A stretch of 64,000 nucleotides of DNA from an uncultured Lachnospiraceae bacterium (GTDB lineage: Bacteria; Bacillota; Clostridia; Lachnospirales; Lachnospiraceae): the NCBI GenBank assembly GCA_902775555.1, contig CACYMQ010000002.1:42794-106793 (forward strand). Direction: 5' to 3'. The notes under the pieces are model-generated. The model had not been told where the DNA came from. It searched no databases and worked only from the letters and a program-made list of their open reading frames with translations. A program made the position numbers and the translations under genes. Positions 3,001 to 19,100 of the stretch are shown piece after piece; position 1 is the stretch's first letter; each line of letters begins with the position of its first letter.

Positions 3001-5923
3001 CAAATGCTGCGCCGTATGCGCCGGGATCATACTGAACAGAGATCTCCGCCGGCGTCCATTCTGCCTTCAGTGTAACCACAAGAGAATTGTAATTCTTCTC
3101 CGGATGCGGGATCTTAATGGATGTTCCGTCAGCTGCCTTGTCGCAATAAGTCGGAGTCAGTTCCATGGAGGCTTCCCATTTTACGCCGTCATTTGTATAC
3201 CAGCCCTTCAGAACATATCCGTCTCTTGTGGACTGCTCCATAGCCTCCATACGGAGCTTCTCATTGATATTTACCGTAAACTGACGGCTCTGTACCTTTC
3301 CGTCCGAACCTTCTCCCATGGTTGCGGGTGTATTTCGATAGGAATCCTCCTGATACAGCACGGAATTGTACCAGCTGTAACCCTGATCGATGGCCTCCTG
3401 ATCATAGGAGCCAAGGTCCAGATGAACCTCCAGCCGGTCCGGGATCAGAACCGGATACAGCTTCAGGGTCTCTGTCGGCATGACTCCGCTGAAATCATAA
3501 ATCGCATAGGTATATTTATCCTCAGGATCATCCTGCTGGTCCTCCGGCAAAGATTCCTTATAGTGATAGGATCCCTCTGTCTTCGGTGTAAGCGACCAGC
3601 CTGCGAAGGTATGATCCTCTTTCGACAGTGTCTTCCCGGCATACCGGCCAAGGGATGCCCCGAACCAGACCTTTTCCACGCTGTTTACCTTTGTGCCTGC
3701 GATATCATCGTAATAGATCAGGTCAAAGGTTTTCCTTGAGTAATACAGGTAGAGTTTTCCATTATTTCCGGGTAAACGGATCGAACCGCCCGGAAATACC
3801 GGTTCCAACCTTGCATAGGGATCATACTGTGTCTGATAGCCAAGGAATGTATAATTCTCGATCTCCCGCGGTTTATAGGTATCCGCATCGGAAACCACGG
3901 AATCCTCAGGCTCTTTGTAACTGCCGTCGGCTTCCATAAGGACCTCGTAGATATCCGTATGCTTTACGGAATCGATGTGAACATCCAGCGTACTCTTGTA
4001 GTAGAAGGCAGATCTCGCTTCCTCCCAGGTCGGTTTGGTAAAGAAATGATAATCTCCCTCCGAAAGACCGGAGACAGTCGTTCCCTCTGCCTTTACCGCC
4101 TGAGATGCATCTTGTCCGTCCTTGTAGTACCAGACCGGAAGATCCTGATCCACGGCAAAGGTGACCGAACCATTGCCGGATCCGTAATCCGTCGGCTGGA
4201 CAGTACCTGCCTGGATCTCCGGATATACCAGAAAGATCCGCTGTCCAAGGGAGGTACCTGTTCCGTTTAGACCCGCACGGAAGTTGACCCATGTATAGTT
4301 ACCGGGACTCAGCTTCTTCCAACGGAGACTTCCCGTAGATTCTCCCGTGGCGGGATCGATCACCGGCATATCATATTCGACCGATCCGTTTGAATACATG
4401 TAATATACATCGAGCCCCGTAAAATCTTCCGGTATCCCTCCGTCCTTGTATGTGAGTCGGGTGGTAAAACGTAAACGGTCTCCATATTCGTCCTCCATAT
4501 CCGGTTCGATGGATAAGAGTTCGATCTTATACAGGAGCTTGGGGATCGTATTTTTCTCCACATGAGACGGATCCAGATTGCAGACTCTTTTTTCCTCACC
4601 ATCCTGGATCGCCGTAGGCTGCTTTGTCACCTCCCAGGCTCCCCAGTCATGTGCCTCCGGATCCACGGGTGTATCAACTGTAGTTCTCGAAAGCTCCTCC
4701 CCGCATCTCGGGCAGGTCATAACACTGACGTAGGATCCGGGTGTTGTACAGGTCGCGGGTACTTCGTCTTCCCGGGTCTCCACCGGTTCGGCATGTCCCT
4801 CTTCACATACATTCTCGAAACAGGCTGTAAGCTTCAGCCCGTCTGCCGGAACAGTAAAGATGGTCTTCTTCTCTTCGTTCTCCCCACCTTCCGGATCGTA
4901 TTCGTTCACCCATTTAACAAAGATCCAGCCGGGTGCCGGTACAGCTTCCAGAGAATACTTCGTTCCTACATCGCAATACTCCGAATACTGGGTCTTCTCC
5001 TCACCGTTGACAAGGATCTTACACTTATCCCTCGCCCCGGCATCCACTTCCGCAATAAATGCGGACCGATACGAATCCACATATTCCCTGATCCGGATGC
5101 CGATGTTCGTGTTATTGTCAAAAGTGACTACCAGCATGGATTCCGGTTTATCCGTTTCAGGGTATTCGATCTCATCCGGAACAACGATCTTGTAATCGTC
5201 TCCTTCTTTCAATATCTGCAAAACCGAAGTTCCGTTTACACCGAGCACCTTCGAAACGTCTTTCCGGATACTAAGCGCTTCAAACACTTCCGAAAGATAA
5301 AAGGTCTTCGACTCTCCCTGAACAGTCGAATTGTACGGATAATCATATTCGGCAACATATTCGGCGCTGGTTCTCTTATAAACGAACTCAATCACAAACA
5401 GGGAGAATCCGTCTGTCTCCACGGATACCACACCATTTGCCTCATCCACGGAAGAAGACAGTTCTTCGGCGTGATACTCTGCCGCATCCGTTTCATGAAG
5501 ATGATAGACGACCGGATCCAGACTCTCATCCGCTGCCGCAGCTGTACGGAAGGAGATCTCCACATTCTGTCCGTCCCGTGGCTGCAGTTCCTCACCGTCG
5601 GCATCGATCACCTTGATGTCGAAGGAATGGGATTCCATAACGCCGGTATCCTCCTCCATCAGCTCCGACACGGCATCAAAGGCAGATTCCTTCTCACTGC
5701 CGGTCACCTTTCGAACCGATAAGGATGCTCCCTCCGGAAATGTGCCTTCCTCCGCCCGCACGGTAACGGTCACGCCGTCTGACTCCACGGAACGTTCAAA
5801 TGCAGGCAGTCCGGAAAGATCCGCCTCCTTCTCTGCGAACATGGAAGACGGCAATGTACATAGCACAAAAAAACATGCCAGAAGAACCGCGATCAGTTGT
5901 TTCAAATGTCTTGATTTTATCAT
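1..5923 (-). CDS. Giant secreted/surface repeat protein (>1974 aa, 3' end beyond window): signal peptide, InlB B-type repeats, Cys/His-rich repeats
   Basis: ATG at 5923 overlaps the upstream stop (ATGA). N-terminus MIKSRHLKQLIAVLLACFFVLCTLPSSMFAEKE is a signal peptide. The frame is still coding at base 2 (…YWICDEGENPCGG), and the track lists no closed ORF in this frame. InlB B-like motifs at about 2.4-3.8 kb (FDSAGGS…PADPVRTGYAFDGW). 417-bp DNA repeats (cacagatccagta at 28, 445, 862; another copy at 1663). Confidence 0.85.
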   Translation of the reverse strand, partial: MIKSRHLKQLIAVLLACFFVLCTLPSSMFAEKEADLSGLPAFERSVESDGVTVTVRAEEGTFPEGASLSVRKVTGSEKESAFDAVSELMEEDTGVMESHSFDIKVIDADGEELQPRDGQNVEISFRTAAAADESLDPVVYHLHETDAAEYHAEELSSSVDEANGVVSVETDGFSLFVIEFVYKRTSAEYVAEYDYPYNSTVQGESKTFYLSEVFEALSIRKDVSKVLGVNGTSVLQILKEGDDYKIVVPDEIEYPETDKPESMLVVTFDNNTNIGIRIREYVDSYRSAFIAEVDAGARDKCKILVNGEEKTQYSEYCDVGTKYSLEAVPAPGWIFVKWVNEYDPEGGENEEKKTIFTVPADGLKLTACFENVCEEGHAEPVETREDEVPATCTTPGSYVSVMTCPRCGEELSRTTVDTPVDPEAHDWGAWEVTKQPTAIQDGEEKRVCNLDPSHVEKNTIPKLLYKIELLSIEPDMEDEYGDRLRFTTRLTYKDGGIPEDFTGLDVYYMYSNGSVEYDMPVIDPATGESTGSLRWKKLSPGNYTWVNFRAGLNGTGTSLGQRIFLVYPEIQAGTVQPTDYGSGNGSVTFAVDQDLPVWYYKDGQDASQAVKAEGTTVSGLSEGDYHFFTKPTWEEARSAFYYKSTLDVHIDSVKHTDIYEVLMEADGSYKEPEDSVVSDADTYKPREIENYTFLGYQTQYDPYARLEPVFPGGSIRLPGNNGKLYLYYSRKTFDLIYYDDIAGTKVNSVEKVWFGASLGRYAGKTLSKEDHTFAGWSLTPKTEGSYHYKESLPEDQQDDPEDKYTYAIYDFSGVMPTETLKLYPVLIPDRLEVHLDLGSYDQEAIDQGYSWYNSVLYQEDSYRNTPATMGEGSDGKVQSRQFTVNINEKLRMEAMEQSTRDGYVLKGWYTNDGVKWEASMELTPTYCDKAADGTSIKIPHPEKNYNSLVVTLKAEWTPAEISVQYDPGAYGAAFVSEQKAALGRVITLAEAPVPDKRHRFVGWEDSKGTLHSAKEDFTFNDWTMTTTVNGQKLLAFTAKYEEIPLEDHSVIFDSAGGSPIASVVAKEGAIIQKPADPVRTGYAFDGWYGISASDPAGYEKVVFPMTMPDNDVRLTAFWKKESYTISFDTVGGSKISPLQVLFDEELSGKAPADPVKEHFIFSGWNPAFPEKMPAENLTLQAVWVPAEYSITYDANGGVWKDHFGATETKRTITAIYDAVVSQPEDPTQEDCVFLGWALKDSESQDPVALPDHMPDTNPVYVALWHHHTPGDKCRENIVQATCETDGKVEEAFYCTGCGEELSRVIRMVPAYGHSWGDWQVTFAPTCSKEGLEERVCRNDPSHTEMEGIPINPDEHDWGPWTVVKEATELAEGEEERVCQDNPEHKETRKIPTKDHEHKLTKVSYKDATCTENGNIEYWICDRGDNPCNRCFADVSADADDEINIEDTVLRAIGHSWYDWVRTKYPTCMAEGLDERTCKNDPTHVETRIIDPIPDAHEFTDWVQTKAPTCTSRGEEERVCLNNANHKETRTLAIDPQAHNWGEWTMVQAPTCAVAGVEERVCSLSDSHRETREIPIASSSHDWGDWTLQKAPTCSSEGEEIRICKNDPKHVDKRAVSIDPNAHDFGKWEVTKPATETEEGQETRYCSYDPGHTDTRIIPKKSHVHKLTRIPAKAATCIENGHIEYWICDQGENPCGLYFRDADGKIRIDREDTVLTATNHDWGDWTVTKQATCCEKGEETRVCKLDATHKETRETDMDPNAHDWGQWKVTRTATETEEGEETRTCRYNEEHTETRLLPKKDHVHQLKHVYSKLATCETDGNIEYWICDQGENPCGRYFRDKYGNLSIDKEDTVVRATGHSYGDWMLKKAPTCEQMGEEIRVCSLDPTHTESRPVAIDPNAHAWGEWVVTKEATELEEGEETRTCKNNPVHTQTVTIPKKGHVHQLTRVEAKEATCTTDGNQEYWICDEGENPCGG
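28..1700 (-). repeat. Intragenic ~417-bp (139-aa) Cys/His-rich repeats
   Basis: Motif cacagatccagta recurs at 28, 445, 862 (417-bp period) and 1663. Units encode HxH…ATC…GN.EYWICD.GENPCG and HxWGxWxV.K.AT..EEGEE.R.C…H. Confidence 0.85.
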
Positions 5924-6678
5924 GCTCCGGTTTCCTTTCGTTTTCTGTTGACGGAACCGCCCGGCTCCGAATGAATAAGCTGCTTCTTATGATCCGTCTG
6001 AAACAGGGAATCAACGACGGCCTGCTTTCTCTGGGGTTCCAGGTCGATCACGCGATGTGTAGCACGGATCCTCTCGGCCGTTTCATGATCATGGGTTGCA
6101 AGGATCACTGTGGTTCCCTGTCTGTGAATGATCTCCAGTAATCGGAAGATCTCCTTCGAAGCTTCCGGATCCAGATTCCCGGTAGGCTCGTCTGCCAGAA
6201 GAACCTTCGGGTAGTTCAGCAGCGCCCGCGCCATACAAACCCTCTGGGTCTCTCCTCCGGAAAGTTCCTCCGGATATCTCCTGTAGAGATGCTCCGCGTC
6301 CATCATTTTCAGCACATTCCGGATCCGATGGTCCGTATCCGCCCTTCGGCCCTTTGTCATGGACATGGAAAGCTCCAGATTATCATATACCGTATACCCG
6401 TCGAAAAGCTTCGCATCCTGGAAGACCACCCCCAGCTTCCGCCGATATTCCGAGATGCCTGCGGGTCGTATGGAGGACAGTTCCTCTCCGTCCACCTTTA
6501 TGCTGCCGGTATAACCGGTCAGTTCCCTGATCAGAAGATGGATCAGGGTTGTCTTGCCGCTTCCGCTTCTTCCGCTGACCAGTACGAATTCTCCCCGTCC
6601 GATATGTTCGGTAAAATCCGTAAATACAGGAGCCTCAGAGTCAGGATAGGACATACACATTTTCCTGAAACTGATCAT
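5920..6678 (-). CDS. FtsE/LolD-like ABC ATP-binding protein (no permease adjacent)
   Basis: Walker A GRSGSGKT, Q-loop VVFQD, signature LSGGE, Walker B LLADEP, H-loop ATHD. 4-bp overlaps with both neighbours. Confidence 0.9.
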   Translation of the reverse strand: MISFRKMCMSYPDSEAPVFTDFTEHIGRGEFVLVSGRSGSGKTTLIHLLIRELTGYTGSIKVDGEELSSIRPAGISEYRRKLGVVFQDAKLFDGYTVYDNLELSMSMTKGRRADTDHRIRNVLKMMDAEHLYRRYPEELSGGETQRVCMARALLNYPKVLLADEPTGNLDPEASKEIFRLLEIIHRQGTTVILATHDHETAERIRATHRVIDLEPQRKQAVVDSLFQTDHKKQLIHSEPGGSVNRKRKETGA

Positions 6679-9047
6679 GCCAGTCCTACCTCCTCCGCAT
6701 AGGGTTCAAAATCGGATTTTGTAAATACCTTTCCGACCTTTACGAATTCATACTTGATGGCATTCAGGTAATGCCGCATGTGTACCTCGCCTCCGGCATC
6801 CGGATCTGCTGCCGCAAGGAAGGCGGCATTCAGGATACAGTTCTTGATATTACCACCTGCAAATTCGTACTTCTCCGCCAGGAAACGGATATCCACATCA
6901 TCCGCCAGCGGCGTCCCCTTCGGGATCGTGGTGGTCCACAGCATCTCCCGCGTATCCGGATCCGGGAACTGGAATTCCACGATATATTTCATCCGACGGA
7001 AGAATGCCGGATCGATATTGTGTTTGTAATTCGTGGCCAGGACGGACACCCCGTCATATGCCTCCACCTCCTGCAGAAGGAGCGCGGTCTTATTATTTGC
7101 GGAAGCCTGATTGGAGCCTCCGTCATCCGAACGCTTTGCAAACAGTGTATCGCACTCATCAAAGAAAAGTACCACATTACACTTCTTAGCTTCCCGGAAG
7201 ATCATGGAGATGGATTTCTCCGTCTCACCTACGTACTTATCGATAACCTTGGACAGGTCGACCCTGTACAGTTCCAGGTTGAGTTCGTGTGCGATGACCT
7301 GTGCGCACATGGACTTACCGGTACCCGGCGCACCGAACAGCAGGACGGAGAGCCCGCGTCCGTAGGGATACTTCTTGGTATAGTTCCAGTTCTCATATAC
7401 CTGCTTTCTGTAATTCATCTGGTCGATGGCATGCTCCAGTGTCTCACGCTGGCTGGGATTCATGACGATATCCTCAAAGCCGAAATTGGCCTTGACCTTT
7501 GTTGCCTTCTGGGACAGCTCCGAACTCATCTGGTTATTGCAACCCTGGAAGAGCTTTGCCCTGGAGATCACACTCTCTCCGGCCATGACCGACAGCGCTC
7601 TGGCATTTTTCAGCGCATCATGGATCTTCCCCGGCGTGAACAGGAACTTGGTGGACATTTCCAGTGTATCGATCTCATCATCCAGCTTATAGTCCTTCCT
7701 GTAATACTCCCAGCACTCCACACGCTCCCCTGTATTGGGTGTGGGGAGCTCCAGCTCGGTGAATTCGTTCTTCGTGATCTCACGAAAATCGATATGCTCC
7801 TTACTCATGGAGAATACCATGATCCCCTGCTCGTTCAGCTTGGAGAATGCCAGATCCATGTACCCGAAGAATTTCTCCTTCTCCTCTTCCCGGAAGGTAA
7901 GCTCCGTGAGGCAGCAGCAGGAATTGGTAAGTATGCATTCCCGGGTCACGGCCCAGAGAGCCTGCTCCACATAGTTGAAATCATAATTGAAAAGCTTCTT
8001 ACAGTTGATCGCCACGGCCTGTAAGCCGTTCTCCCTGCAGAAATGTTTTACGAAGAAACGTCTTCCGCTTCCCTCGTCTCCGTAATAGTAGAAGATCCTG
8101 CAGCCTTCCTCATAGGATATCTTCATCTCATTCAGGATCCCCTCATTTGCCAGGATGGGATCCAGTTCCTTTTTATCCGTCAGCATGTAGATGAATCTGG
8201 AATAATCCTCATCCAGTTTGTCCGGATTTCTCCCGAAGAGACAGTCGATCACCCGCTTATCCGGTGAAACGACGGTTGAGAAGGGCATACTCTTCATGAC
8301 CTGCAGGGGGAGCACCGGAAGCATCTGCTCCAGACAGGTGGACATATCTCCGTATGCACCTGTAATGGAGTAGGATTTTCCGTAGAAAACCTTGGCAGCG
8401 GACTCGATTGTCGGGGAAGAGAGATTTGCATTTTCATTGATGATCTGAAATACACCCGCATAATCCGTCTGCGTCGATGACAGGATCCCGCAGGCAAAGC
8501 AAAACAGCGTAAAGGGTTCAAATCCGAGTTTATGGGCAAGTGTATAGAAGGGAAGCGGTATCCCGCTTTCTACGGTGATCCGTGCTCTTTCATCGATATA
8601 GGCCAGTTTTTCCCGGATGGGAAGCTTTGCTCCCGCACCGGATCCGGATTTCTTCTCTTTCTTCTTTGACGTATCCTCAGAAGCGGAAAAAGCACCCAGG
8701 AGAGCCATCAGTTCATTATCAACATCCGACTCCGAAGCATCCTCAGCTTCGCCCTCTCCCTCTCCCTCTTCTTCACCTTCCTCCGCATCCGTATCATCGG
8801 ACAGCTCGTCATATTCCGCGCCTTCCTCCTGATAGAACTGCTCTACCTTGTTTCGACAGGTATCTCCCGCGATCTCGATATCCGGATACAGAATACTCTT
8901 ATAACCACCCTGATCACTGGCATAAGTCGTCTTCATCACATCAATATACTGATCCAGAGCCATATTGACACTGTTAAAGATATACTGCATATATTCATCA
9001 TAGTCCTTAAACGGCTGATCCTTATACTTGCTGTCATATCTTTCCAT
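6675..9047 (-). CDS. AAA+ ATPase, Afp15/Pvc15-like CIS ATPase
   Basis: GAPGTGKS; YRVDLSKVIDKYVGETEK; LFFDECD; LATN…IDPAFFRR. Degenerate first AAA module (GDEGSGRR). Lies in a phage-tail-like operon. Confidence 0.88.
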   Translation of the reverse strand: MERYDSKYKDQPFKDYDEYMQYIFNSVNMALDQYIDVMKTTYASDQGGYKSILYPDIEIAGDTCRNKVEQFYQEEGAEYDELSDDTDAEEGEEEGEGEGEAEDASESDVDNELMALLGAFSASEDTSKKKEKKSGSGAGAKLPIREKLAYIDERARITVESGIPLPFYTLAHKLGFEPFTLFCFACGILSSTQTDYAGVFQIINENANLSSPTIESAAKVFYGKSYSITGAYGDMSTCLEQMLPVLPLQVMKSMPFSTVVSPDKRVIDCLFGRNPDKLDEDYSRFIYMLTDKKELDPILANEGILNEMKISYEEGCRIFYYYGDEGSGRRFFVKHFCRENGLQAVAINCKKLFNYDFNYVEQALWAVTRECILTNSCCCLTELTFREEEKEKFFGYMDLAFSKLNEQGIMVFSMSKEHIDFREITKNEFTELELPTPNTGERVECWEYYRKDYKLDDEIDTLEMSTKFLFTPGKIHDALKNARALSVMAGESVISRAKLFQGCNNQMSSELSQKATKVKANFGFEDIVMNPSQRETLEHAIDQMNYRKQVYENWNYTKKYPYGRGLSVLLFGAPGTGKSMCAQVIAHELNLELYRVDLSKVIDKYVGETEKSISMIFREAKKCNVVLFFDECDTLFAKRSDDGGSNQASANNKTALLLQEVEAYDGVSVLATNYKHNIDPAFFRRMKYIVEFQFPDPDTREMLWTTTIPKGTPLADDVDIRFLAEKYEFAGGNIKNCILNAAFLAAADPDAGGEVHMRHYLNAIKYEFVKVGKVFTKSDFEPYAEEVGLA

Positions 9048-9132: not shown

Positions 9133-9363
9133 CTATCTGCCGCGATCCGTCCGAAAGACCGTCCCCCTGTCAAAAACGGAGGGCGCTTTATTGATGGAAG
9201 TTACATCGGTTTCTTCCTTCAGTCCTTTGTATTCATTCAGAGGAGGCGTCTTCTTTCTCTCCGCATAGATCATCCAATCCGGCTCCTCTGCATAGTAAGG
9301 CTCTCTCGAAGCATTCTTTTCACTTCTTCTGAGATCATTGACTAAACGGTCATTCAGTCCCAT
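9133..9363 (-). CDS. Small hypothetical protein (76 aa)
   Basis: RBS AAGGAG upstream of ATG; fills the operon gap between the SH3 gene and the ATPase. Confidence 0.65.
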   Translation of the reverse strand: MGLNDRLVNDLRRSEKNASREPYYAEEPDWMIYAERKKTPPLNEYKGLKEETDVTSINKAPSVFDRGTVFRTDRGR

Positions 9364-9374
9364 ACTCTGCTCCT

Positions 9375-10124
9375 TTACTGCGCATTCTTGTCAAATAATG
9401 TCTTATATTCTTCCTTCTTGATCTCCTGCAGCTTCAAAAACCGGTTGTAGCAATATCCGCTCTTCCCTTTATAGAGCACTTTGGACCACTCTTCCCCTTT
9501 TTCAAGCACACAGCCCACGGACCCCGGATATAATGCGACTACGGTCTTCGCCTTCCCGTTTGCCTCTTCCCGGATCCGGAGGGTGGTTCCCTGATTGGTT
9601 GTGACGAAGGAATAATAAGGTCCCGCAGCCGGCATTTGCACGACCGTCTTCCCGGAGGGATCCTCCGATGTCTTCTCCTCCGTTCCCTTCTCGCGGGTAT
9701 TCTTCTCCGTTACAGCCTCCGTCACCTTCTCCGGACCGGGTTCCACAGGCACTGCCACTGTCTCCGTGGTGCTTTCCGTTACTGTCTCCGACCCCTTCGT
9801 TCCGGGATCTGCCTTCGTTTCGGAGCGTGCCTCGGTGGGGAGATCGAGGATCGGTGCCGCCTTACCTTCCGTCGCAGCATCCGGCGCCGGCACATTGCCT
9901 CTTTCCGTACCCGTCTCCCCGAGCCGGTGCTGCACATCTTCCGTATCCGCTTCTATAATATCGATATAATCCTTCTCTGCGGTTTTCTCAACGGCAGCGT
10001 CCTTCTTACCCCGAAGTTCGAAGTAAGATTCCTTGCCGTCTAAAAGGAACAGGGCAAGGACTGCGGTGAACACATAGAACACCATGACCGCAGCAAGAAC
10101 ACGTTTTAACTTCTTTCTGCTCAT
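9375..10124 (-). CDS. Membrane-anchored SH3b-domain protein
   Basis: N-terminal TM (VLAAVMVFYVFTAVLALFLL), E/T/K/P-rich linker, C-terminal SH3b-like LRIREEANGKAKTVVALYPG…GEEWSKVLYKGKSGY. Confidence 0.85.
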   Translation of the reverse strand: MSRKKLKRVLAAVMVFYVFTAVLALFLLDGKESYFELRGKKDAAVEKTAEKDYIDIIEADTEDVQHRLGETGTERGNVPAPDAATEGKAAPILDLPTEARSETKADPGTKGSETVTESTTETVAVPVEPGPEKVTEAVTEKNTREKGTEEKTSEDPSGKTVVQMPAAGPYYSFVTTNQGTTLRIREEANGKAKTVVALYPGSVGCVLEKGEEWSKVLYKGKSGYCYNRFLKLQEIKKEEYKTLFDKNAQ

Positions 10125-11062
10125 GCTTTGCCTCCGGAGGGGATCTGTATATAGATTCCCATGCCATTTCCTGCTGTACTCTTTGCATAGATCGTTCCGC
10201 CATAATACTCAACGATCGCTCTTGCCTGGGCAAGCCCCAGTCCGTTACCGCTGATACGGTTGGAACCCTGATAATTCAGTTCAAAGATATATTTCGTCTC
10301 CTCCGTGGGAAGTCCTTCCCCGGTGTCCTTCAGCACGATAAAGATATCATCCCCGATGGTCGATATGGTGATGACCAGGGATCCGGCCCGGTTCATGTAC
10401 TTGATCGAATTATCAATGATATTCCGGAACAGGGTCAGGATCCTTCCCTGATCCGCCGTGACCAGAAGCGTATCCGTGGCGGAGGATACCGTGATATGCA
10501 GATTTGCCGCTTTTGCCTCCGCCAGCAGTGAATTCTTTGCCTGTTCGGCAACGGCTATGATATTTACGGTTTCTCTTCCGTCTCCGTCTCCCGTAACAGG
10601 AGGAAGAAGTGCACCGAAATCCTGTACCGGCTCACGTCTTTCCTTCTCACGCATATTTGCGATCTCCTGCTCCTTCTGCAGTTTCTCCTCCTCCAGCTTT
10701 CTAATCCTTGTCAGAAGATTGGAGGTCTCGTCCTTAAAGGATTCATTCTTATTTCGAAGACCTTCCACCTGCGCACGTATCTGTTCCAGCAGATTGTCCT
10801 TTTCCTTTACCTGCCCGGTCATCTCACGAAGCGCCTTATCCTTCTCGGCGATCTCGATCCCCACTTCCTGGTGATAGGTATTCAGGGACAGTGCCTTATC
10901 CACCTGATCCGAATAACAGATATAGCAAAAAGAGAAAAGGCACAGACTGTGAAGCACGAAAAATACAATGATGAATACCAGTGACAGGCAGAACATGCTG
11001 TAAATGGTGGCTGCAAAAAAGATGCAGGACCCGATCAAAAACAAGCGCTGTAATTTATACAT
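10121..11062 (-). CDS. Membrane-bound HATPase_c kinase-like protein lacking a HisKA H-box
   Basis: N-terminal TMs and coiled coil; N box NIIDNSIKY, G1 DTGEG, F box IFE, G2 GNGLGL. No His in a phospho-acceptor context. Confidence 0.82.
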   Translation of the reverse strand: MYKLQRLFLIGSCIFFAATIYSMFCLSLVFIIVFFVLHSLCLFSFCYICYSDQVDKALSLNTYHQEVGIEIAEKDKALREMTGQVKEKDNLLEQIRAQVEGLRNKNESFKDETSNLLTRIRKLEEEKLQKEQEIANMREKERREPVQDFGALLPPVTGDGDGRETVNIIAVAEQAKNSLLAEAKAANLHITVSSATDTLLVTADQGRILTLFRNIIDNSIKYMNRAGSLVITISTIGDDIFIVLKDTGEGLPTEETKYIFELNYQGSNRISGNGLGLAQARAIVEYYGGTIYAKSTAGNGMGIYIQIPSGGKA

Positions 11063-11095
11063 AGAGTATATGACCTCCTTAAGTGATACCTGATC

Positions 11096-11395
11096 TTACC
11101 TTATCTCCAGGATCGATAGAAAACCCGTAACCCTGAATACTTCCATCACCTGAGGCTGCGCATTGATTATGATCTGCTTTCCTCCCTTGGACCTGGCCGT
11201 CTTCTCCCCCAGTACAAGCGCGCGAAGTCCTGCACTGGACATATAGGAGACCTCAGCCAGATTTATGATCACATAATTACTCTTTGTAAATGCCTTCAGT
11301 ACAAGGTTCTGGAACTCATCACTGCAGACCGCATCGATCCTCCCCGCTACATCCAGCTGGAGCATATCCTCTTTCTGTATCTCTTCAAAATACAT
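11096..11395 (-). CDS. STAS domain protein (anti-sigma antagonist, SpoIIAA/RsbV-like)
   Basis: 99 aa with VIINLAEVSYMSSAGLRALV (conserved phospho-Ser motif) and VFRVTGF. Confidence 0.92.
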   Translation of the reverse strand: MYFEEIQKEDMLQLDVAGRIDAVCSDEFQNLVLKAFTKSNYVIINLAEVSYMSSAGLRALVLGEKTARSKGGKQIIINAQPQVMEVFRVTGFLSILEIR

Positions 11396-11408: not shown

Positions 11409-12503
11409 TTATTTCAGTATCACCGTTCCATCCATTGAAAGGCCGCTGTCCAGCTCAGCCTCCTGTTCCTTCGGCAGCCTGGAATTGATATCCAGATACG
11501 TTCTGGAATCCGCTGTCGGTATCTCATCCATCTGAACTATGCTGATCCTGGTACGGATCGGCTTAAACTGGTTCAGCATGAATACGATCTTGTGTCTCAG
11601 TTCTTCTGTCAGTTTTCCGGGGACCATGACCGTTACATCGTAGATCCCCTGTACCTGAAATCCGTCCGGGACATCGATCCTGTCCTCATTGATCCAGGAC
11701 CGGATCCGATTGTGTTCGATCACCACGGCCGGTTCACCGAGGATGATCTCAAGGACTCTCCGGATGACCGTTTTCGTACCCTTCAGCCGGTTCAGCAGAT
11801 AGGCTTCACGAACGAACTGACGCATCATATGTTCATCCAGGGATCCCCCCTCCAGGTCGATGCCGACCCAGGATCCGTAAACGGGAAGCAGTTCCTTCGG
11901 ACAGACATCCGGATCCAGAAGCTTCGGCAGGTCCCTGATATCCTGTTCAAAATCATTGTAGATACTGGAAAAAACAGAGAGGAATCTGTGAAAGAAGCTG
12001 TTTCTCTCTCTGTAAACCTGTGGAAATGTGGCCATAAAATTATCGCCCGTAGAGTCCACGACCATATTGGATATCCTGAGATGCCCTTCTCCCGCAACAA
12101 GGATCGCGATGTAGAGATACTGCCCCTTCTGCTCATAGAGCAGGATATCCGATCTACCGATGAACCGGGTCGCTCCCTGACTCAGAAGCAGATCCTTCTT
12201 GTCCTCAGAGGAGATATCGGGATTTGTCAGCAGCAGATCCAGATCGATCATGCTGCCCCCGATATTTCTTCTTCTGTCATTCACGGCCAGAACATAAACA
12301 CCGTATGTCCGGTCTTCCGAACATTCCGCTTCGAAGGACAGTCTCCCCCACTCCGCATCCGGTCTTACCCCGTCCAGTCCGCGGAGAAAGATCCCCGGCG
12401 AATCCGACGAAGGGATCAGCTCGAGGGTTGCGGAATCGTCACAGGAAAATCCCGTGATATAACCGGCCTTTATTCTGTTTTTTCGTATCGTATATTTTGC
12501 CAT
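11409..12503 (-). CDS. Phage-tail/baseplate wedge protein (P2 gpI-like C-terminal domain)
   Basis: FPQVY…FFHRFLSVF…LLDPDVCPKELLPVYGSWVG…LKGTK motif; follows two baseplate J-like genes. Confidence 0.75.
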   Translation of the reverse strand: MAKYTIRKNRIKAGYITGFSCDDSATLELIPSSDSPGIFLRGLDGVRPDAEWGRLSFEAECSEDRTYGVYVLAVNDRRRNIGGSMIDLDLLLTNPDISSEDKKDLLLSQGATRFIGRSDILLYEQKGQYLYIAILVAGEGHLRISNMVVDSTGDNFMATFPQVYRERNSFFHRFLSVFSSIYNDFEQDIRDLPKLLDPDVCPKELLPVYGSWVGIDLEGGSLDEHMMRQFVREAYLLNRLKGTKTVIRRVLEIILGEPAVVIEHNRIRSWINEDRIDVPDGFQVQGIYDVTVMVPGKLTEELRHKIVFMLNQFKPIRTRISIVQMDEIPTADSRTYLDINSRLPKEQEAELDSGLSMDGTVILK

Positions 12504-12504
12504 A

Positions 12505-14613
12505 TCACTTTACCGCTATTGATGTGAGCATCGTTTCCAGCTGGATCTGCTTCGGATACAGAAGGCAGTTTTCCGCCGGATAGATATTGGAATCCCTGAG
12601 CTTTGCATATTTCAGGTTCTCCGGCTGCATATAGAGATCATAGACATAATCCACACATTCCAGACTTTCTATACCGGAAAATACTTCTTCAAAGGTAAGA
12701 GGATCCCCGAAGTTCTTCTCACCGTCGATATAACTGAACAACGAACGGATCCTTTCCTCGATCTGCTCCCTGCTGTTGGAATACCTGCGCTTGACATACA
12801 CGGTCAGCTGCACGGATACTCCCACGTAAACCGGAGGCAGGATCTGGAATCTGGTCGTAAGGAGTCTTCGCTCCGCCAGCTCCCTGGTGATCGCATCCAT
12901 ATACTGTTTGGAAAGACGCGGGAACTCCTCATCCGTTCCGGGCAGTACCGAGATGTGGACCATATTGTCGAGTTCATCCATGACCGCCCGGATCTTTCGG
13001 ATACAAAGCCCGGGAACCGAAGCGACCGCATTTTCATAATCCTCTGCCGTGATACAGGTATAAGGCGTATAAACATCCTGTCGGAATCGGACCTTTACTT
13101 CCTCCAGGGTTTCCCGGAATGCTCCTCCGGTACCTGATCCGGGATTATAGAAGATCGGTTTTTTACTGATATCGGGTGCCGTGAAGTAATTCCCGGCCCG
13201 GACATTCCCCTTCGGTCCCTCTGTAACTGCAATAGAACCGATGTATAACTCCGCACCGATAAAATCACCTGCATCCTCTATTACGATCCGTCCGTCATTT
13301 TCGAGGAGATGATAGGTCAGTGCCTCATCCTCCTTCTTGCCCGGCCTTACAAAATCGAAGGATTCTTCCCCGAAATCATCGACTCTTTTTGCGATCAGCA
13401 GAAAACTGTCCGGAACGATATGGGAGAAGGGTAGATCGATCTCCTGATCATCATAACCGATGACCCGTCCCACATGATACTGACGCATGACTTCTTCATT
13501 GTAGACTACGATCCTGACCGCATCCTTCACCTTGGAAGGTTCATAACCGAACAAGCGTCTGTCAAAGGTCAGGGTATACTCGCCGTTTCTTCCCTTCTCG
13601 CAAAGACAGTATCTGCCCCGTCGTCCGGTAGCGGTGGTAAGCTCGTACCGTCGATAGGAATCGCCCTTACTCTCCCTGCCGAAGCAGAGAACATACGACT
13701 CCCCTTTCATGGAGCTCTGCACCCGGATCCGTTCTGTCTTCTGAAAGGTCATGGCCATGGCACGTGTATCCTTCTGCCATACCTCAAAAAGGAAGGCATC
13801 GATCTGAATGATACATGGCCGGATATCATAATTTGCATTTGTCAGGGTTGCACGGATACAGTATCCGCTGAGTTCCCCCAGCTTATACTCGGCGTACCGC
13901 ATATCCGGCGGAAATTTCAGTTTGATCTCCCCGCTTTCCAGAAGGGCACCGGTGAAATCCTTTGCCTTCAGTTCCTGAAATCCGTCCTGCGTATAACATT
14001 CCCATTTGAAGGAGGCGAAAATATTATCTGACCGGTCCTTCAGCGGATTCCGATGATGATCGGAATTGATCCGGATAAAGAAGGAGGTCTCCGAACCGGG
14101 TTCCGGAAGAAAATCACAGATCAGATACAGGGAATCCCCGACCTTCGGTGAATCTCCGAACACCTTTGCCGGCAGGACAATTTCTCTGTCAAACAAATGC
14201 CCATGATCGTGAAAGGCCCCGTCATAAAAGGACCGGACACCAGTCAGATGGCATTCCCCCACGTCCTGCGCACGTTTCGTTTCAAAAACCATGTCTCCGA
14301 GGAAAAACCTCTGATTGTTGCATAAATGTGTTTTTTCGCGAAGTGCGTCCGCAGCAAGCAGGAGTCTGGCACATTTTCCCTTCCTTGCCTCAAATCCGAC
14401 CATTTTCAGAAGTGCTCGTCTTGTCTCATCACTTACCGATGAGATACGGGAACCCTGAAGGGCTTCAAAGAGGATAAGATTCTCCAGGATCGTTATGCCG
14501 GGATCTGATGGGTTGTGATTCGTCCATTCCTCCGCGATAAGAGGAATGGACGATATTGCATCTGCCATTCTCTCTTCATATGTTCTTCCGGTTGTTTCTT
14601 CCAGTCTAAGCAA
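12505..14613 (-). CDS. Baseplate J-like wedge protein (Afp11/Afp12-like)
   Basis: EWTNHNPSDPGITILE N-terminus; GGAFRETLEE…ITAEDYE…VPG…baseplate-J motif. Confidence 0.85.
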   Translation of the reverse strand: MLRLEETTGRTYEERMADAISSIPLIAEEWTNHNPSDPGITILENLILFEALQGSRISSVSDETRRALLKMVGFEARKGKCARLLLAADALREKTHLCNNQRFFLGDMVFETKRAQDVGECHLTGVRSFYDGAFHDHGHLFDREIVLPAKVFGDSPKVGDSLYLICDFLPEPGSETSFFIRINSDHHRNPLKDRSDNIFASFKWECYTQDGFQELKAKDFTGALLESGEIKLKFPPDMRYAEYKLGELSGYCIRATLTNANYDIRPCIIQIDAFLFEVWQKDTRAMAMTFQKTERIRVQSSMKGESYVLCFGRESKGDSYRRYELTTATGRRGRYCLCEKGRNGEYTLTFDRRLFGYEPSKVKDAVRIVVYNEEVMRQYHVGRVIGYDDQEIDLPFSHIVPDSFLLIAKRVDDFGEESFDFVRPGKKEDEALTYHLLENDGRIVIEDAGDFIGAELYIGSIAVTEGPKGNVRAGNYFTAPDISKKPIFYNPGSGTGGAFRETLEEVKVRFRQDVYTPYTCITAEDYENAVASVPGLCIRKIRAVMDELDNMVHISVLPGTDEEFPRLSKQYMDAITRELAERRLLTTRFQILPPVYVGVSVQLTVYVKRRYSNSREQIEERIRSLFSYIDGEKNFGDPLTFEEVFSGIESLECVDYVYDLYMQPENLKYAKLRDSNIYPAENCLLYPKQIQLETMLTSIAVK

Positions 14614-17600: not shown

Positions 17601-17692
17601 TCCGGGTCAAAATGCCATTCGGGCACATATCCGCGGCTCAGTTCACGTATTCGGTTTTCAATATCCTTTACGCTGCGGTTATCTATGTCCAA
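14615..17692 (-). CDS. Large baseplate J-like protein (Afp11-like)
   Basis: YVPEWHFD…DIGAAI…FVNMLDLSLEAAKPA N-terminus; IDRMNGELIFSDG; NPVRAYGGADMET…LSSRGRLVSDKDY. Confidence 0.87.
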   Translation of the reverse strand: MDIDNRSVKDIENRIRELSRGYVPEWHFDPEHADIGAAIARIFALSMKENIDLANRSMERFHAEFVNMLDLSLEAAKPAGCMVKFELIEDTIPGTQIRKGTRLVARSEETVSGQVIFETNQEIYVTNSRLTDAFMTDREDGSFVPLLGEYVPVPLLDGVPDRSRDTEEEPGRTEDPETSGDARRSFGINRRLRPFVLFSEDNNIARSALVLYHESLFDIEGEPIYIRLEGNDGIMEGLKNKEYVLKYYSAAGFREFDEVHFSDDGVTIEVSKEKKCRHLVINGRSYAVVILEAAGVVRAAEELSRIGLSSSGRERCPDFVTDGTNDLSVEEFAPFSDTLSVYNECYVGQDLYFSKAGARITLSFQVLHRETGLYLTRQEEQAELKVIKRKPRMMASEIPAEAFADEISMEYFNGIGWKNLPVDMDVTGVLGGAGAGSISISFTCPSDWERIQAGAYFGRAVRIRLIKSDNCFLRPGIHHYPVIGQFRAAFTYEGHFEDPDRVYRISGTVKDEITEQLKTGRRFTAVSGGTYHDDALYLGFNHPMENGPVSLFFELEDQINMNTMKCRYEYSAGDGFKPLKVIDSTKDFSRTGNVVFMPPSDMQSITLEGKKRIWIRIRRAELQDEHESRLFLPKIRSIMTNVVFVTNTTTEKEVDYYLDDTSPNQHFSLGRKSILDAEVWVNEKRSILKEEIDRMLSEQPEDIRVEHDMLGGISAVYVKWQETAGFDTASDPRSYMIDRMNGELIFSDGVKAKMPRVTDDVAFKVRVRTSDGAAGNVEPDAIHETVGTELYIDRVYNPVRAYGGADMETVPQAFRRGANLLSSRGRLVSDKDYVYSILNFSDSIDQVVSVPGETVDGKQAAGDISFVLLMKDFREGSFSFHRISGPLRQYLKKLSPLTISQEHIHVVEPIFVSVSVSIWASVLDEDASFEIQHMIINTLKEFLNPLKGEETGGWPIGILPKSPQIKMRLGMLKNRAVIKRTTITAHYVDRSGEHTMDLDDVQVTPFMAVRSGEHKVNIDYEGEDV

Positions 17693-18186
17693 CCCTCGTC
17701 GTCCTCCTTATCTGTTGTATCATCGTAATATACACGCTCCAGCGGTTCTCTTTCCTTCGTCTCTTCCGGTTCCGCACCCCTGTCAAGATAGAACGGAAAT
17801 ACCAGATTATCCCTGCTGTTCGTAGAGGCCACCAGATAATTCACATAAATGATCACGGCCCCCTTGTCCGCTCTGTATTCCGTTTCCACATCCACATCGG
17901 AGATACGCGGTTCGTTATGCATGATGGTCTGGGTCAGATCCCGCCTGAGGATCGACATCATGGTATTTGTCGTATCCATAAATGCATAATTCATCATATC
18001 GCTTCCGAAGTCCGGCCTCACGAGCCGCTCGGTGATCTGCGTCATCAGGATCAGGTACAGAGATTCTTTGACCGCTCTGTTTCCGGACACTGTCATGATC
18101 CGTCCGGTAGCAGGATCCACCTGAAGCGGAAATTTTGCGCCTGTACCCAGGAATTTACTTTCTTCCATGCTTCTACCTCTTAACAA
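17683..18186 (-). CDS. GPW/gp25 baseplate/sheath-initiator protein (Afp9-like)
   Basis: FLGTGAKFPL…VKESLYLILMT…ERLVRPDFGS…HNEPRI…NLVFPFYL. Confidence 0.9.
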   Translation of the reverse strand: MLRGRSMEESKFLGTGAKFPLQVDPATGRIMTVSGNRAVKESLYLILMTQITERLVRPDFGSDMMNYAFMDTTNTMMSILRRDLTQTIMHNEPRISDVDVETEYRADKGAVIIYVNYLVASTNSRDNLVFPFYLDRGAEPEETKEREPLERVYYDDTTDKEDDEGWT

Positions 18187-18209: not shown

Positions 18210-19100
18210 TTATCCCAGTTTGATGGGCATGCCTGCGACCTCCACCTTTCCGCTGCTGGCGATCTTTACGCCGCCGCTTCCCTCCAATGTAACATTGGAG
18301 CCCTTGAACTGCGCCTTACTGGAGCTTTCGACAGCCACTTCATCATTTGCCTTGACCGATACCTTCTTCGCCTGCAGGCTTACCTCCCCGGTCTCACCAT
18401 TCATGGTCAGGGTGATGTCATTGCCCACCTTAACGGTCAGCTTCTTCTCCGCTGTCACCTCGATATGGCCCTTCTCCGGATCCGTGCTGAGCCGGACGAA
18501 GTTCTTTGCTTCCTTATCCGAAAGCTCGATCACTTTCTTCTCATTGTTCAGTGTCAGTTTATGCATCTCCAGCGCGGTCCGGATGGTCATCACATCCTTC
18601 GCACCGGGTTCATCTCCGCCGCCACCGCCGGCTCCGCCTCCGCCTTGCTGGTCATCATTCTCCACGATATCCTCAAAGATGATGGCATTTCCGTTTCGGG
18701 TCACGATCTTCTTAAATTTATTCTTCTCGTCGATGGATCCGGTCAGGATCTTATCATTTGTTTTCGGGATGCAGCCGATCACATAGGCTCTTTCGATATT
18801 CCCTTCCTCAAATGCCACCAGCACCAGATCACCGACCTCCGGATTGAAATAGTGCCCCCAGGATCCGCCTGCGGAAGGCATGACAACCCTGGCCCACAGG
18901 ATCCGGGTACTGTCCGCCTCATCGCCTTCCCCTTCCCCCTGTTCACGGGAAAGCAGGATCACTGAGACCCGGCCCGGCATATCCTTGTCATAATTCTTTA
19001 CGACCTTGCCGAGCATGACACCCATGATGCGGGAATCACCGGTATCCGTTTTCTCCATTCTTTTTTTTGAGACATCCTCTATGATATCAAAGATCGCCAT
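18210..19100 (-). CDS. Spike protein (gp5/gpV-like OB fold plus beta-helix)
   Basis: GKVVKNYD…GRVSV…WARVVMPSAGGSWGHYFNPEVGDLVLVAFEEGNIERAYVIG, followed by beta-helix-like C-terminus. Confidence 0.88.
   Translation of the reverse strand: MAIFDIIEDVSKKRMEKTDTGDSRIMGVMLGKVVKNYDKDMPGRVSVILLSREQGEGEGDEADSTRILWARVVMPSAGGSWGHYFNPEVGDLVLVAFEEGNIERAYVIGCIPKTNDKILTGSIDEKNKFKKIVTRNGNAIIFEDIVENDDQQGGGGAGGGGGDEPGAKDVMTIRTALEMHKLTLNNEKKVIELSDKEAKNFVRLSTDPEKGHIEVTAEKKLTVKVGNDITLTMNGETGEVSLQAKKVSVKANDEVAVESSSKAQFKGSNVTLEGSGGVKIASSGKVEVAGMPIKLG

What the first reader, a model, noticed from the sequence alone, without database searches (positions are those of the whole stretch)
10121..11395. STAS protein plus H-box-less kinase: a possible partner-switching module inside the CIS operon
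Seen: STAS with intact SYMSSAGL phospho-Ser motif, next to a membrane HATPase_c protein with N/G1/F/G2 boxes but no HisKA His, and no receiver gene nearby. Established: SpoIIAA/RsbV STAS proteins are Ser-phosphorylated by GHKL-fold kinases (SpoIIAB/RsbW). Inference: a membrane-tethered Ser kinase/STAS switch controlling assembly or firing, rather than a two-component sensor.
Basis: partly seen in the sequence, partly recalled or inferred. Interest (0 to 1): 0.58.

Follow-up and report, generated by a model that had tools for sequence, protein, structure and literature searches.

The report
CIS phospho-switch protein beside orphan kinase domain
A phage-tail-like injection machine of a rumen Lachnospiraceae bacterium carries a small phospho-switch (STAS) protein and, next to it, a membrane-anchored kinase domain that has lost its histidine module; comparison with about 90 related loci shows these are two separately inherited accessories, so the neighbouring "kinase" is a candidate for the switch's kinase but not a demonstrated one.

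Summary
Window 11096-11395(-) encodes a 99-aa SpoIIAA/RsbV-type STAS whose Ser54 sits at the phospho-serine position. Window 10121-11062(-) encodes a 313-aa protein (KIN): TM hairpin, one long helix, a flexible LLPP linker, and a histidine-kinase-type ATP-binding domain. KIN has no HisKA/DHp domain and no conserved His.

The STAS is a real partner-switch component of this CIS lineage: it follows the P2-I-like baseplate gene in 18 of 19 sampled genomes, and Ser54 is invariant in 65 orthologues. In basal relatives its neighbours are an RsbW-type kinase and a Cache-HAMP-PP2C phosphatase, not KIN.

KIN travels as a cassette with a TM-SH3b gene and coexists with RsbW in 17 loci. It persists in 7 CIS loci that lack STAS. 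Its catalytic domain is equally invariant with or without STAS.

In the window's crown clade RsbW is gone from the operon, and KIN is the only kinase-like gene there. Two relatives have an in-operon PP2C plus STAS plus KIN. KIN phosphorylating STAS therefore remains possible, at about 0.3.

Nothing on this was found in the searchable literature. Earlier notes of this scan record STAS modules in CIS operons of other genomes, one with a membrane-anchored HATPase.

The parts
11096..11395 (-). STAS protein, 99 aa, SpoIIAA/RsbV type; Ser54 lies at the phospho-serine position in the motif Y51-x-S-S-A-G-L-R-A-L
   Evidence: Pfam/NCBIfam; PDB alignments; S54 and the core Y51-G72 are invariant in 65 orthologues from three locus classes
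10121..11062 (-). KIN, 313 aa: a membrane-anchored histidine-kinase-derived ATP-binding protein without DHp or H box
10913..11056 (-). KIN residues 3-50: two-helix TM hairpin with a 2-residue turn and no extracellular domain
   Evidence: AlphaFold helices 3-25 and 28 onwards; hydrophobic sequence; Q5, F45 and Y47 are conserved
10640..10912 (-). KIN residues 51-141: variable single-helix stalk, about 13 nm if straight; a conserved juxtamembrane motif Y-x-Q-E-x-G-x-E-x-A; homologues differ by a 7-residue indel
10574..10639 (-). KIN residues 142-163: low-confidence flexible linker with the near-invariant L152-L-P-P155
10139..10573 (-). KIN residues 164-308: catalytic (CA) domain of histidine-kinase type; the N, G1, F and G2 boxes and the ATP lid N-Y-Q-G-S-N-R-I-S-G-N-G-L-G-L are invariant or nearly so in 82 homologues
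9375..10124 (-). Single-pass membrane protein with a C-terminal SH3b (SH3_3) domain. Its start overlaps the KIN stop by 4 bases. It travels with KIN as one cassette, including when the cassette is inverted.
9133..9363 (-). Conserved 76-aa ORF (s76) that travels with the AAA+ ATPase gene; no family hit
6675..9047 (-). CIS AAA+ ATPase (Afp15-like position)
5920..6678 (-). FtsE-like ABC ATPase with no permease gene. In most relatives it lies between STAS and KIN, and its start overlaps the STAS stop.
11409..12503 (-). P2 gpI-like / CIS12-like baseplate protein, the conserved upstream neighbour of STAS

Best explanation
Two separately inherited accessory modules of one CIS lineage happen to be neighbours here.

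(1) STAS is the switch subunit of a partner-switching module built into this lineage's operon, directly after the baseplate genes. In basal relatives the module is complete: STAS, an RsbW-type Ser kinase and a Cache-HAMP-SpoIIE PP2C phosphatase, with no sigma factor gene among the genes examined next to the module. STAS itself, phosphorylated or not on Ser54, is therefore most likely the output. It probably acts by binding a CIS component (baseplate, AAA+ ATPase or the FtsE-like ATPase). In the window's crown clade the RsbW and PP2C genes have left the operon. Ser54 control would then come from kinases and phosphatases encoded elsewhere (this genome has 5 HATPase_c_2 and 13 SpoIIE-type genes) and/or from KIN.

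(2) KIN plus the TM-SH3b protein is an envelope module. KIN descends from a small two-TM histidine kinase that lost its DHp. What remains is an ATP-binding catalytic domain on a flexible tether at the end of a stalk about 13 nm long. The SH3b partner faces the cell wall. KIN probably acts in trans on, or docks to, a conserved CIS-associated partner at the membrane, an anchor/trigger role analogous to CisA. STAS is one candidate substrate, but KIN's function does not depend on it.

Shown: domain content, loss of DHp, gene orders, conservation patterns. Inferred: all activities and binding partners.
For: - STAS follows the P2-I-like gene in 18 of 19 genomes of this CIS lineage, in a sample of 400 Lachnospiraceae genera; KIN is in 13 of them.
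- KIN-less loci have canonical partner-switch parts. L082: STAS, HATPase_c_2, eCIS_core, dCache-HAMP-SpoIIE. L083 and L084: STAS plus a dCache-HAMP-SpoIIE-HATPase_c_2 fusion. L086: STAS, HATPase_c_2.
- 17 loci have STAS-(ABC or PP2C)-RsbW followed by an inverted KIN-SH3 cassette.
- On a baseplate-J tree these 17 form a basal grade, and the RsbW-less, KIN co-directional loci form a crown clade of 48.
- The KIN catalytic domain, including the ATP lid, is invariant in loci with STAS only (50), with RsbW (17), without STAS (7) and without CIS genes in the fetched flank (8).
- At least two genomes with STAS-less loci show no CIS-type STAS anywhere.
- KIN lacks a DHp: the model shows a single helix 28-141. 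The nearest HisKA-bearing paralogues (H-G-F-R-T-P and H-S-I-R-M-P) align to a gap in KIN and come with OmpR-type regulators.
- The KIN stop overlaps the SH3b start.
Against: - In about 50 loci, including the window, KIN is the only kinase-like gene in the operon, and it occupies the slot that RsbW holds in the basal grade.
- STAS Ser54 and the whole phospho-loop/helix core stay invariant in 44 such loci.
- L010 has P2I-PP2C-STAS-KIN-SH3-AAA, and L011 has STAS-KIN...AAA-PP2C, neither with an RsbW gene.
- Two class-A genomes show no HATPase_c_2 above cut-off at all (their completeness is unknown).
- All of these fit KIN having taken over STAS phosphorylation.
- No binding partner of STAS or KIN has been identified. 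No complex prediction could be run.
Confidence: 0.5

Rival explanations
1. One reading: KIN is a membrane-tethered Ser kinase that phosphorylates STAS Ser54. In the crown clade it would be a non-orthologous replacement of the RsbW-type kinase. The SH3b partner would supply a cell-wall input, and trans- or cis-encoded PP2C enzymes would reverse the mark.
For: - KIN has intact, invariant ATP-binding motifs but no autophosphorylation site, so any phosphotransfer must go to another protein.
- RsbW is absent from all roughly 50 class-A operons, where KIN follows STAS or STAS-ABC.
- The STAS core with Ser54 is invariant there.
- In-operon PP2C genes occur with STAS and KIN but without RsbW in L010 and L011.
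- STAS positions 88-90 shift (R-V-T versus Q/N/E-M-S/T) together with RsbW loss.
- From general knowledge: histidine-kinase-like domains acting as Ser kinases exist (PDK/BCKDK; plant phytochrome and ethylene receptors).
Against: - KIN matches PF02518 and histidine-kinase CA structures (HK853, WalK, ZraS), not PF13581.
- It coexists with RsbW in 17 loci.
- It is kept unchanged in 7 loci without STAS and in 8 loci without CIS genes in the fetched flank.
- 40 of 42 class-A genomes have RsbW-type kinases elsewhere.
- This genome has an orphan STAS-RsbW pair whose kinase is 47% identical to a CIS-linked RsbW.
- The RsbW-loss/KIN pattern rests on only about 3 independent contrasts.
Confidence: 0.3
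2. There is no phospho-switch in this clade. STAS is a constitutive adaptor, for example an MlaB-like helper of the FtsE-like ABC ATPase. KIN is an ATP-binding pseudokinase or scaffold that tethers the CIS to the membrane.
For: - STAS and the ABC gene are adjacent, and their tblastn hits abut or overlap, in most relatives.
- STAS evolves slightly faster relative to baseplate J where RsbW is absent (distance ratio 1.02 versus 0.79).
- STAS has been lost about 5 times in the crown clade.
- A membrane adaptor needed for firing is known for a Gram-positive CIS (CisA, PMC12237407).
Against: - STAS predates the ABC gene in this lineage: L082-L086 have STAS but no ABC.
- STAS occurs without ABC in the L064 clade, L013 and L075.
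- Ser54 is never substituted in 65 sequences.
- PP2C genes remain linked in several class-A loci and next to CIS-like STAS paralogues.
- Pseudokinases usually lose ATP-binding residues, whereas KIN keeps all of them.
Confidence: 0.12
3. KIN is a cryptic two-component kinase. Its catalytic domain would phosphorylate a His on another protein's DHp in trans, for example the LytS-type kinase at 44477-45778 or an unrecognised His-bearing partner.
For: The catalytic domain is of canonical histidine-kinase type. The nearest paralogues are true kinases with OmpR-type regulators, and in L090 such a pair lies beside KIN.
Against: No DHp-only or HPt-like gene is conserved in the 80 loci. The conserved neighbours SH3b and s76 offer no candidate: s76 has no His, and the SH3b protein's cytoplasmic N-terminus is about 8 residues. 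The upstream two-component pair is complete on its own. H64 is not conserved.
Confidence: 0.04

Closest known systems
Bacillus RsbV-RsbW-RsbU/P and SpoIIAA-SpoIIAB-SpoIIE partner-switching modules
   Same: The STAS protein belongs to the same family (TIGR00377 above cut-off) and has the serine at the same position. Orthologous CIS loci carry HATPase_c_2 kinases and SpoIIE-type PP2C phosphatases next to it.
   Different: No sigma factor domain was found in the ORFs scanned in the window or in the genes examined next to the related modules. The module sits inside a contractile-injection operon. In the window itself the RsbW-type kinase and the PP2C are missing from the operon.
Bordetella BtrU/BtrV/BtrW (type III secretion), Vibrio fischeri SypE/SypA, Rhodobacter RbaV/W/Y (gene transfer agent)
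   Same: In these systems a STAS-only protein is itself the output, or controls a secretion or phage-like apparatus rather than a sigma factor (review PMC8256260; PMC3999984).
   Different: Those kinases are of the RsbW type. None of those modules is embedded in a CIS operon or paired with a DHp-less histidine-kinase relative.
Intramembrane-sensing small histidine kinases (two TM helices with no periplasmic domain; here the HisKA-bearing paralogues in L090 and L094)
   Same: KIN shares the TM hairpin architecture and a catalytic domain about 30% identical to these paralogues. Some KIN homologues align over most of the length.
   Different: KIN has lost the H box and the second DHp helix and has no response regulator. 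Its stalk is a single long helix and its CA domain hangs on a roughly 20-residue linker.
Streptomyces coelicolor CisA (membrane protein required for CIS firing; PMC12237407)
   Same: A membrane protein encoded in a Gram-positive CIS cluster and proposed to link the particle to the membrane.
   Different: No sequence comparison was done. CisA is bitopic and has no kinase-like domain. The KIN/SH3b role as anchor or trigger is inference only.
CapK/CapS (EMBO J 2026, PMC13373217)
   Same: An anti-sigma-type kinase phosphorylating a STAS protein that is itself the effector, encoded beside the operon it controls.
   Different: [quoted passage not shown] Nothing indicates DNA binding here.

Membership tests
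SpoIIAA/RsbV-type anti-sigma-factor antagonist (STAS-only protein) | STAS fold/profile match above curated cut-off | tested here: met
   PF01740 61.9 bits (cut-off 22.6); TIGR00377 72.2 bits (cut-off 53.45)
SpoIIAA/RsbV-type anti-sigma-factor antagonist (STAS-only protein) | Conserved serine at the start of helix 2, aligned with the phosphorylated Ser of SpoIIAA/TM1442 | tested here: met
   S54 aligns to that Ser and is invariant in 65 orthologues
SpoIIAA/RsbV-type anti-sigma-factor antagonist (STAS-only protein) | Cognate HATPase_c_2 (RsbW/SpoIIAB) kinase encoded alongside | tested here: not met
   None in the window operon. Present beside the orthologous STAS in 17 KIN-containing loci and 5 of 7 KIN-less loci elsewhere.
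SpoIIAA/RsbV-type anti-sigma-factor antagonist (STAS-only protein) | PP2C (SpoIIE-type) phosphatase encoded alongside | tested here: not met
   None in the scanned ORFs of the window. The nearest are 17-22 kb beyond the window's left end. In-operon in L010, L011, L064-type, L082-84.
SpoIIAA/RsbV-type anti-sigma-factor antagonist (STAS-only protein) | Sigma factor as final target | tested here: not met
   No sigma factor domain in the ORFs of the cluster that were scanned
SpoIIAA/RsbV-type anti-sigma-factor antagonist (STAS-only protein) | Reversible Ser phosphorylation demonstrated | not testable with these tools
   Needs a kinase assay or Phos-tag
Two-component sensor histidine kinase | HATPase_c catalytic domain with N, G1, F and G2 boxes | tested here: met
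   PF02518 8.6e-20; best structural matches HK853, ZraS, WalK
Two-component sensor histidine kinase | DHp/HisKA helical hairpin with a conserved phospho-acceptor His | tested here: not met
   No HisKA-type hit at E<0.1. H64 is not conserved. The model shows a single helix 28-141. The H boxes of paralogues align to a gap.
Two-component sensor histidine kinase | Cognate response regulator | tested here: not met
   None adjacent in the window or in the 80 related loci. The only receiver protein in the window pairs with its own LytS-type kinase.
SpoIIAB/RsbW-type Ser kinase (HATPase_c_2, PF13581) | Match to PF13581; small soluble protein of about 140 aa | tested here: not met
   PF13581 is not among KIN's hits at E<0.1. 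KIN is a 313-aa membrane protein.
SpoIIAB/RsbW-type Ser kinase (HATPase_c_2, PF13581) | Strict co-occurrence with its STAS substrate | tested here: not met
   KIN is present without STAS in 7 CIS loci and in 8 loci without CIS genes in the fetched flank; RsbW never occurs without STAS in these loci
CisA-like CIS membrane adaptor | Membrane protein of a CIS cluster needed for membrane recruitment and firing | not tested
   Conceptual analogy only; no CisA sequence was compared and no functional data exist

The most novel reading that the evidence does not exclude
KIN is a new kind of bacterial protein kinase: a histidine-kinase catalytic domain that has shed its DHp and, from a membrane stalk paired with a cell-wall-binding SH3b protein, phosphorylates the CIS-resident STAS on Ser54. 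Envelope state would then gate assembly or firing of a Gram-positive contractile injection system, and KIN would have replaced the ancestral RsbW-type kinase.
Probability: 0.27. Interest if true: 0.8.

Novelty: new variant of a known kind. Interest (0 to 1): 0.55.

Why it matters
How contractile injection systems of Gram-positive bacteria are switched on, positioned at the membrane and fired is largely open; CisA of Streptomyces is the one accessory factor described (PMC12237407). A partner-switch module wired into the operon, with a sensor phosphatase in some lineages, gives a concrete, testable control point. KIN defines a conserved family in 252 species genomes: histidine-kinase catalytic domains without a phospho-acceptor module. 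Its substrate is unknown, and finding it would show what an orphan CA domain can do. Cultured strains carry the locus (Lachnospiraceae bacterium AD3010, Butyrivibrio spp. AE3009 and FCS014), or KIN unlinked to it (AE2015, Su6), so genetics and cryo-tomography are feasible.

Tried and rejected
Contexts came from the search for related loci and the genome search instead.
- Cryptic phospho-acceptor: H64 was rejected because it is not conserved. A hidden DHp was rejected by the model and by alignment with HisKA-bearing paralogues.
- Simple non-orthologous replacement (KIN and RsbW mutually exclusive) was rejected: 17 loci have both.
- Class-A genomes lacking any RsbW-type kinase: rejected as a general rule, since 40 of 42 have one.
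- Rosetta-stone search for STAS-KIN fusions: one longer homologue (P0121, 567 aa), with no STAS domain.
- STAS as an obligate partner of the FtsE-like ATPase (MlaB-MlaF style): weakened, because STAS predates ABC in the lineage and occurs without it.
- Independent-contrast test of RsbW loss against KIN orientation or STAS presence: only 3 contrasts, so no test was possible.
- A complex prediction of STAS with the KIN catalytic domain could not be run, because the structure tool folds single chains only.
- Literature searches for STAS or partner switching in CIS/eCIS found nothing relevant.
Full report
**What is there**

The finding spans two minus-strand genes inside a contractile-injection-system (CIS) operon. 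The operon includes sheath 29781-31475, tube genes, VgrG-like 18210-19100, gp25 17683-18186, baseplate J 12505-14613 and a P2 gpI/CIS12-like gene 11409-12503. After these come, in order:
- STAS, 11096-11395;
- KIN, 10121-11062;
- a TM-SH3b protein, 9375-10124, with a 4-base overlap with KIN;
- a conserved 76-aa ORF, 9133-9363;
- the AAA+ ATPase, 6675-9047;
- an FtsE-like ABC ATPase, 5920-6678 (218 bits to TIGR02673, below its cut-off);
- a giant secreted protein.

Both genes of the finding have good ribosome-binding sites, and no promoter or terminator signal exceeds chance. Related records place the organism among rumen and gut Lachnospiraceae.

**STAS**

It matches Pfam STAS and TIGR00377 above their cut-offs. 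It aligns with SpoIIAA, RsbV and TM1442 so that S54 of S-Y-M-S-S-A-G-L falls on the phosphorylated serine. In 65 orthologues the segment Y51 to G72 is almost unchanged and S54 is never substituted.

**KIN**

- Every histidine-kinase match (Pfam, NCBIfam, PDB sequences, Foldseek) covers only residues from about 162 to 313, the catalytic domain.
- There is no HisKA-type hit. H64 is Q, N, R, E or P in homologues.
- The AlphaFold model built from 26 homologues (pLDDT 83) shows TM helix 3-25, one uninterrupted helix 28-141, a low-confidence linker 142-163 containing the near-invariant L-L-P-P, and the CA domain 164-308. There is no helical hairpin, hence no DHp.
- The nearest relatives with a HisKA domain are 299- and 311-aa proteins in L094 and L090. 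They carry H-G-F-R-T-P and H-S-I-R-M-P boxes that align to a gap in KIN, and they are encoded with OmpR-type regulators.
- KIN is therefore a descendant of a small two-TM histidine kinase that lost its phospho-acceptor module.
- Its N, G1, F and G2 boxes and its ATP lid are invariant or nearly so in 82 homologues. This argues for a working nucleotide site and a conserved partner surface.

**Comparative genomics**

A pattern scan of one genome per species found KIN homologues in 252 genomes, and 80 loci were fetched. The commonest order is P2I-STAS-ABC-KIN-SH3-AAA, with the STAS and ABC tblastn hits abutting or overlapping.

Direct STAS-KIN adjacency is seen only in the window's clade (L001-L007) and in L009, L010, L011, L013, L027 and L075. 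The ABC gene lies after the AAA+ gene in the window and in L001-L004.

In 22 loci the KIN-SH3 cassette is inverted relative to the operon. Seventeen of these carry an RsbW-type kinase gene (HATPase_c_2), alone or fused to or next to a Cache-HAMP-SpoIIE phosphatase, directly after STAS or STAS-ABC.

Seven CIS loci have KIN but no STAS. Eight KIN loci have no CIS genes within the fetched flank. For four of five of these that were tested, the genome still has baseplate J and a CIS-type STAS elsewhere.

In a sample of 400 Lachnospiraceae genera:
- 19 genomes have this CIS lineage (baseplate J at 30% identity or more);
- 18 of them have the STAS orthologue;
- 13 genomes have KIN, and all 13 also have the STAS; one of them (G116) shows no baseplate-J match.

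In the KIN-less loci the STAS still follows the P2-I-like gene and sits beside canonical partner-switch parts:
- L082: STAS, HATPase_c_2, eCIS_core, dCache-HAMP-SpoIIE;
- L083 and L084: a dCache-HAMP-SpoIIE-HATPase_c_2 fusion;
- L086: HATPase_c_2.

**Evolutionary order**

A baseplate-J tree was rooted on the KIN-less loci. The RsbW-containing, KIN-inverted loci form a basal grade. The RsbW-less loci, with KIN mostly co-directional, form a crown clade of 48 that includes the window.

The minimum numbers of changes are RsbW 5, STAS 5, KIN state 4 and ABC 7. Only 3 independent contrasts exist, so no correlation test is possible.

STAS evolves somewhat faster relative to baseplate J where RsbW is absent (distance ratio 1.02 versus 0.79). 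Its phospho-loop core is unchanged. Positions 88-90 differ between the classes: R-V-T against Q/N/E-M-S/T.

The general idea, a partner-switch module inside a CIS operon, is well supported.

Points that favour the specific pairing KIN to STAS:
- KIN needs a substrate in trans.
- It is the only kinase-like gene in about 50 operons.
- It sits where RsbW sits in the basal grade.
- S54 stays invariant in those operons.
- L010 (P2I-PP2C-STAS-KIN-SH3-AAA) and L011 (STAS-KIN...AAA-PP2C) combine a phosphatase, STAS and KIN without RsbW.
- Two class-A genomes show no HATPase_c_2 above cut-off, though their completeness is unknown.

Points against it:
- KIN's domain type is that of histidine kinases, not of SpoIIAB/RsbW.
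- It coexists with RsbW in 17 loci.
- Its tightest link is to the SH3b gene.
- It persists with an identical catalytic domain where STAS is missing. At least two such genomes show no CIS-type STAS anywhere.
- RsbW-type kinases are available in trans in 40 of 42 class-A genomes.

This genome has 5 HATPase_c_2 matches above cut-off, 13 full SpoIIE-type phosphatase matches and 9 STAS matches. They include:
- an orphan STAS-RsbW pair whose kinase is 47% identical to a CIS-linked RsbW;
- a STAS paralogue 64% identical to the CIS STAS, lying near two PP2C genes on contig 21;
- two PP2C genes 17-22 kb beyond the window's left end.

**Best reading**

Two modules lie side by side. One is a CIS-resident STAS phospho-switch, inherited from a complete STAS/RsbW/PP2C set, with no sigma factor gene found nearby. 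The other is a KIN/SH3b envelope module whose function does not require STAS.

I put the independent-module reading at about 0.5 and KIN as the STAS kinase at about 0.3. A non-phosphorylated adaptor plus pseudokinase gets about 0.12, and a cryptic trans-acting histidine kinase about 0.04.

**Comparison with known systems**

The STAS passes the sequence tests for a SpoIIAA/RsbV-type protein. In this window, however, it lacks the adjacent kinase, phosphatase and sigma factor.

Functionally the nearest precedents are STAS-only proteins that act as outputs or control secretion or phage-like particles: BtrV/BtrW/BtrU, SypA/SypE, RbaV (PMC8256260, PMC3999984) and CapS/CapK (PMC13373217).

KIN fails the defining DHp, His and regulator tests for a histidine kinase, and it fails the PF13581 test for an RsbW-type kinase. 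As a membrane accessory of a Gram-positive CIS it invites comparison with CisA (PMC12237407), but homology was not tested.

**Novelty**

Full-text searches found no description of STAS or partner-switch modules in CIS/eCIS operons. The eCIS survey PMC8213781 reports GerE-type regulators and occasional histidine kinases only.

Within this scan the same theme was noted before on other genomes, including one note of a STAS followed by a membrane-anchored HATPase protein. My analysis reached the same picture independently. It adds the class structure, the tree order and the finding that KIN is independent of STAS.

Noticed in passing
window 9133-9363 (-): A 76-aa ORF just upstream of the AAA+ ATPase is conserved in about 60 related loci, with a conserved S-V-F ... 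F-x-T end. It stays with the AAA+ gene when the KIN cassette is inverted. It has no Pfam hit and gave no hit in the KIN-less loci fetched.
   Followed up: partly
window 5920-6678 (-), L008-L063: An FtsE-like ABC ATPase with no permease gene. In most relatives it lies between STAS and KIN with its start overlapping the STAS stop. In the window it has moved behind the AAA+ gene, next to a giant ORF that, with the neighbouring contig sequence, spans about 3070 codons. It was not found in five of the seven KIN-less loci (L082-L086).
   Followed up: partly
L081 (own genome, contig 21) 321-6046: A STAS paralogue 64% identical to the CIS STAS lies at a contig start. It is followed by a 101-aa unknown ORF, a second STAS and two SpoIIE-type PP2C genes. 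CIS-like STAS paralogues beside or near PP2C genes also occur in genomes whose CIS locus lacks STAS (L099-L101; in L099 and L100 as 258-263-aa fusions with an unknown C-terminal part).
   Followed up: partly
L097 (own genome, 17-22 kb left of the window) 3915-8721: Two SpoIIE-type PP2C genes (589 and 609 aa) lie on the same strand as the CIS cluster, beyond several giant ORFs and acetyltransferase genes.
   Followed up: no
L094 6907-13593; L090 9656-12319: The nearest HisKA-bearing paralogues of KIN come with OmpR-type regulators. In L094 the order is regulator, AAA+, STAS, small kinase, AAA+, with no baseplate genes in the 20 kb fetched. In L090 a KIN homologue is divergent from such a regulator-kinase pair.
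   Followed up: partly
many loci, e.g. L016-L018, L037, L048, L073, L074; L039, L047, L061, L067: A second, distant AAA+ paralogue (about 30% identical to the CIS ATPase) often follows the CIS ATPase. It also lies about 6 kb from KIN in loci without CIS genes in the fetched flank.
   Followed up: no
L082 10615-10995: A 126-aa eCIS_core (DUF4157-type) protein is encoded between the RsbW-type kinase and the Cache-HAMP-PP2C phosphatase of a KIN-less CIS locus.
   Followed up: no
window 10640-10912 (KIN residues 51-141): Homologues differ in the stalk by an indel of exactly seven residues, one heptad. This fits a coiled coil whose register is preserved.
   Followed up: no
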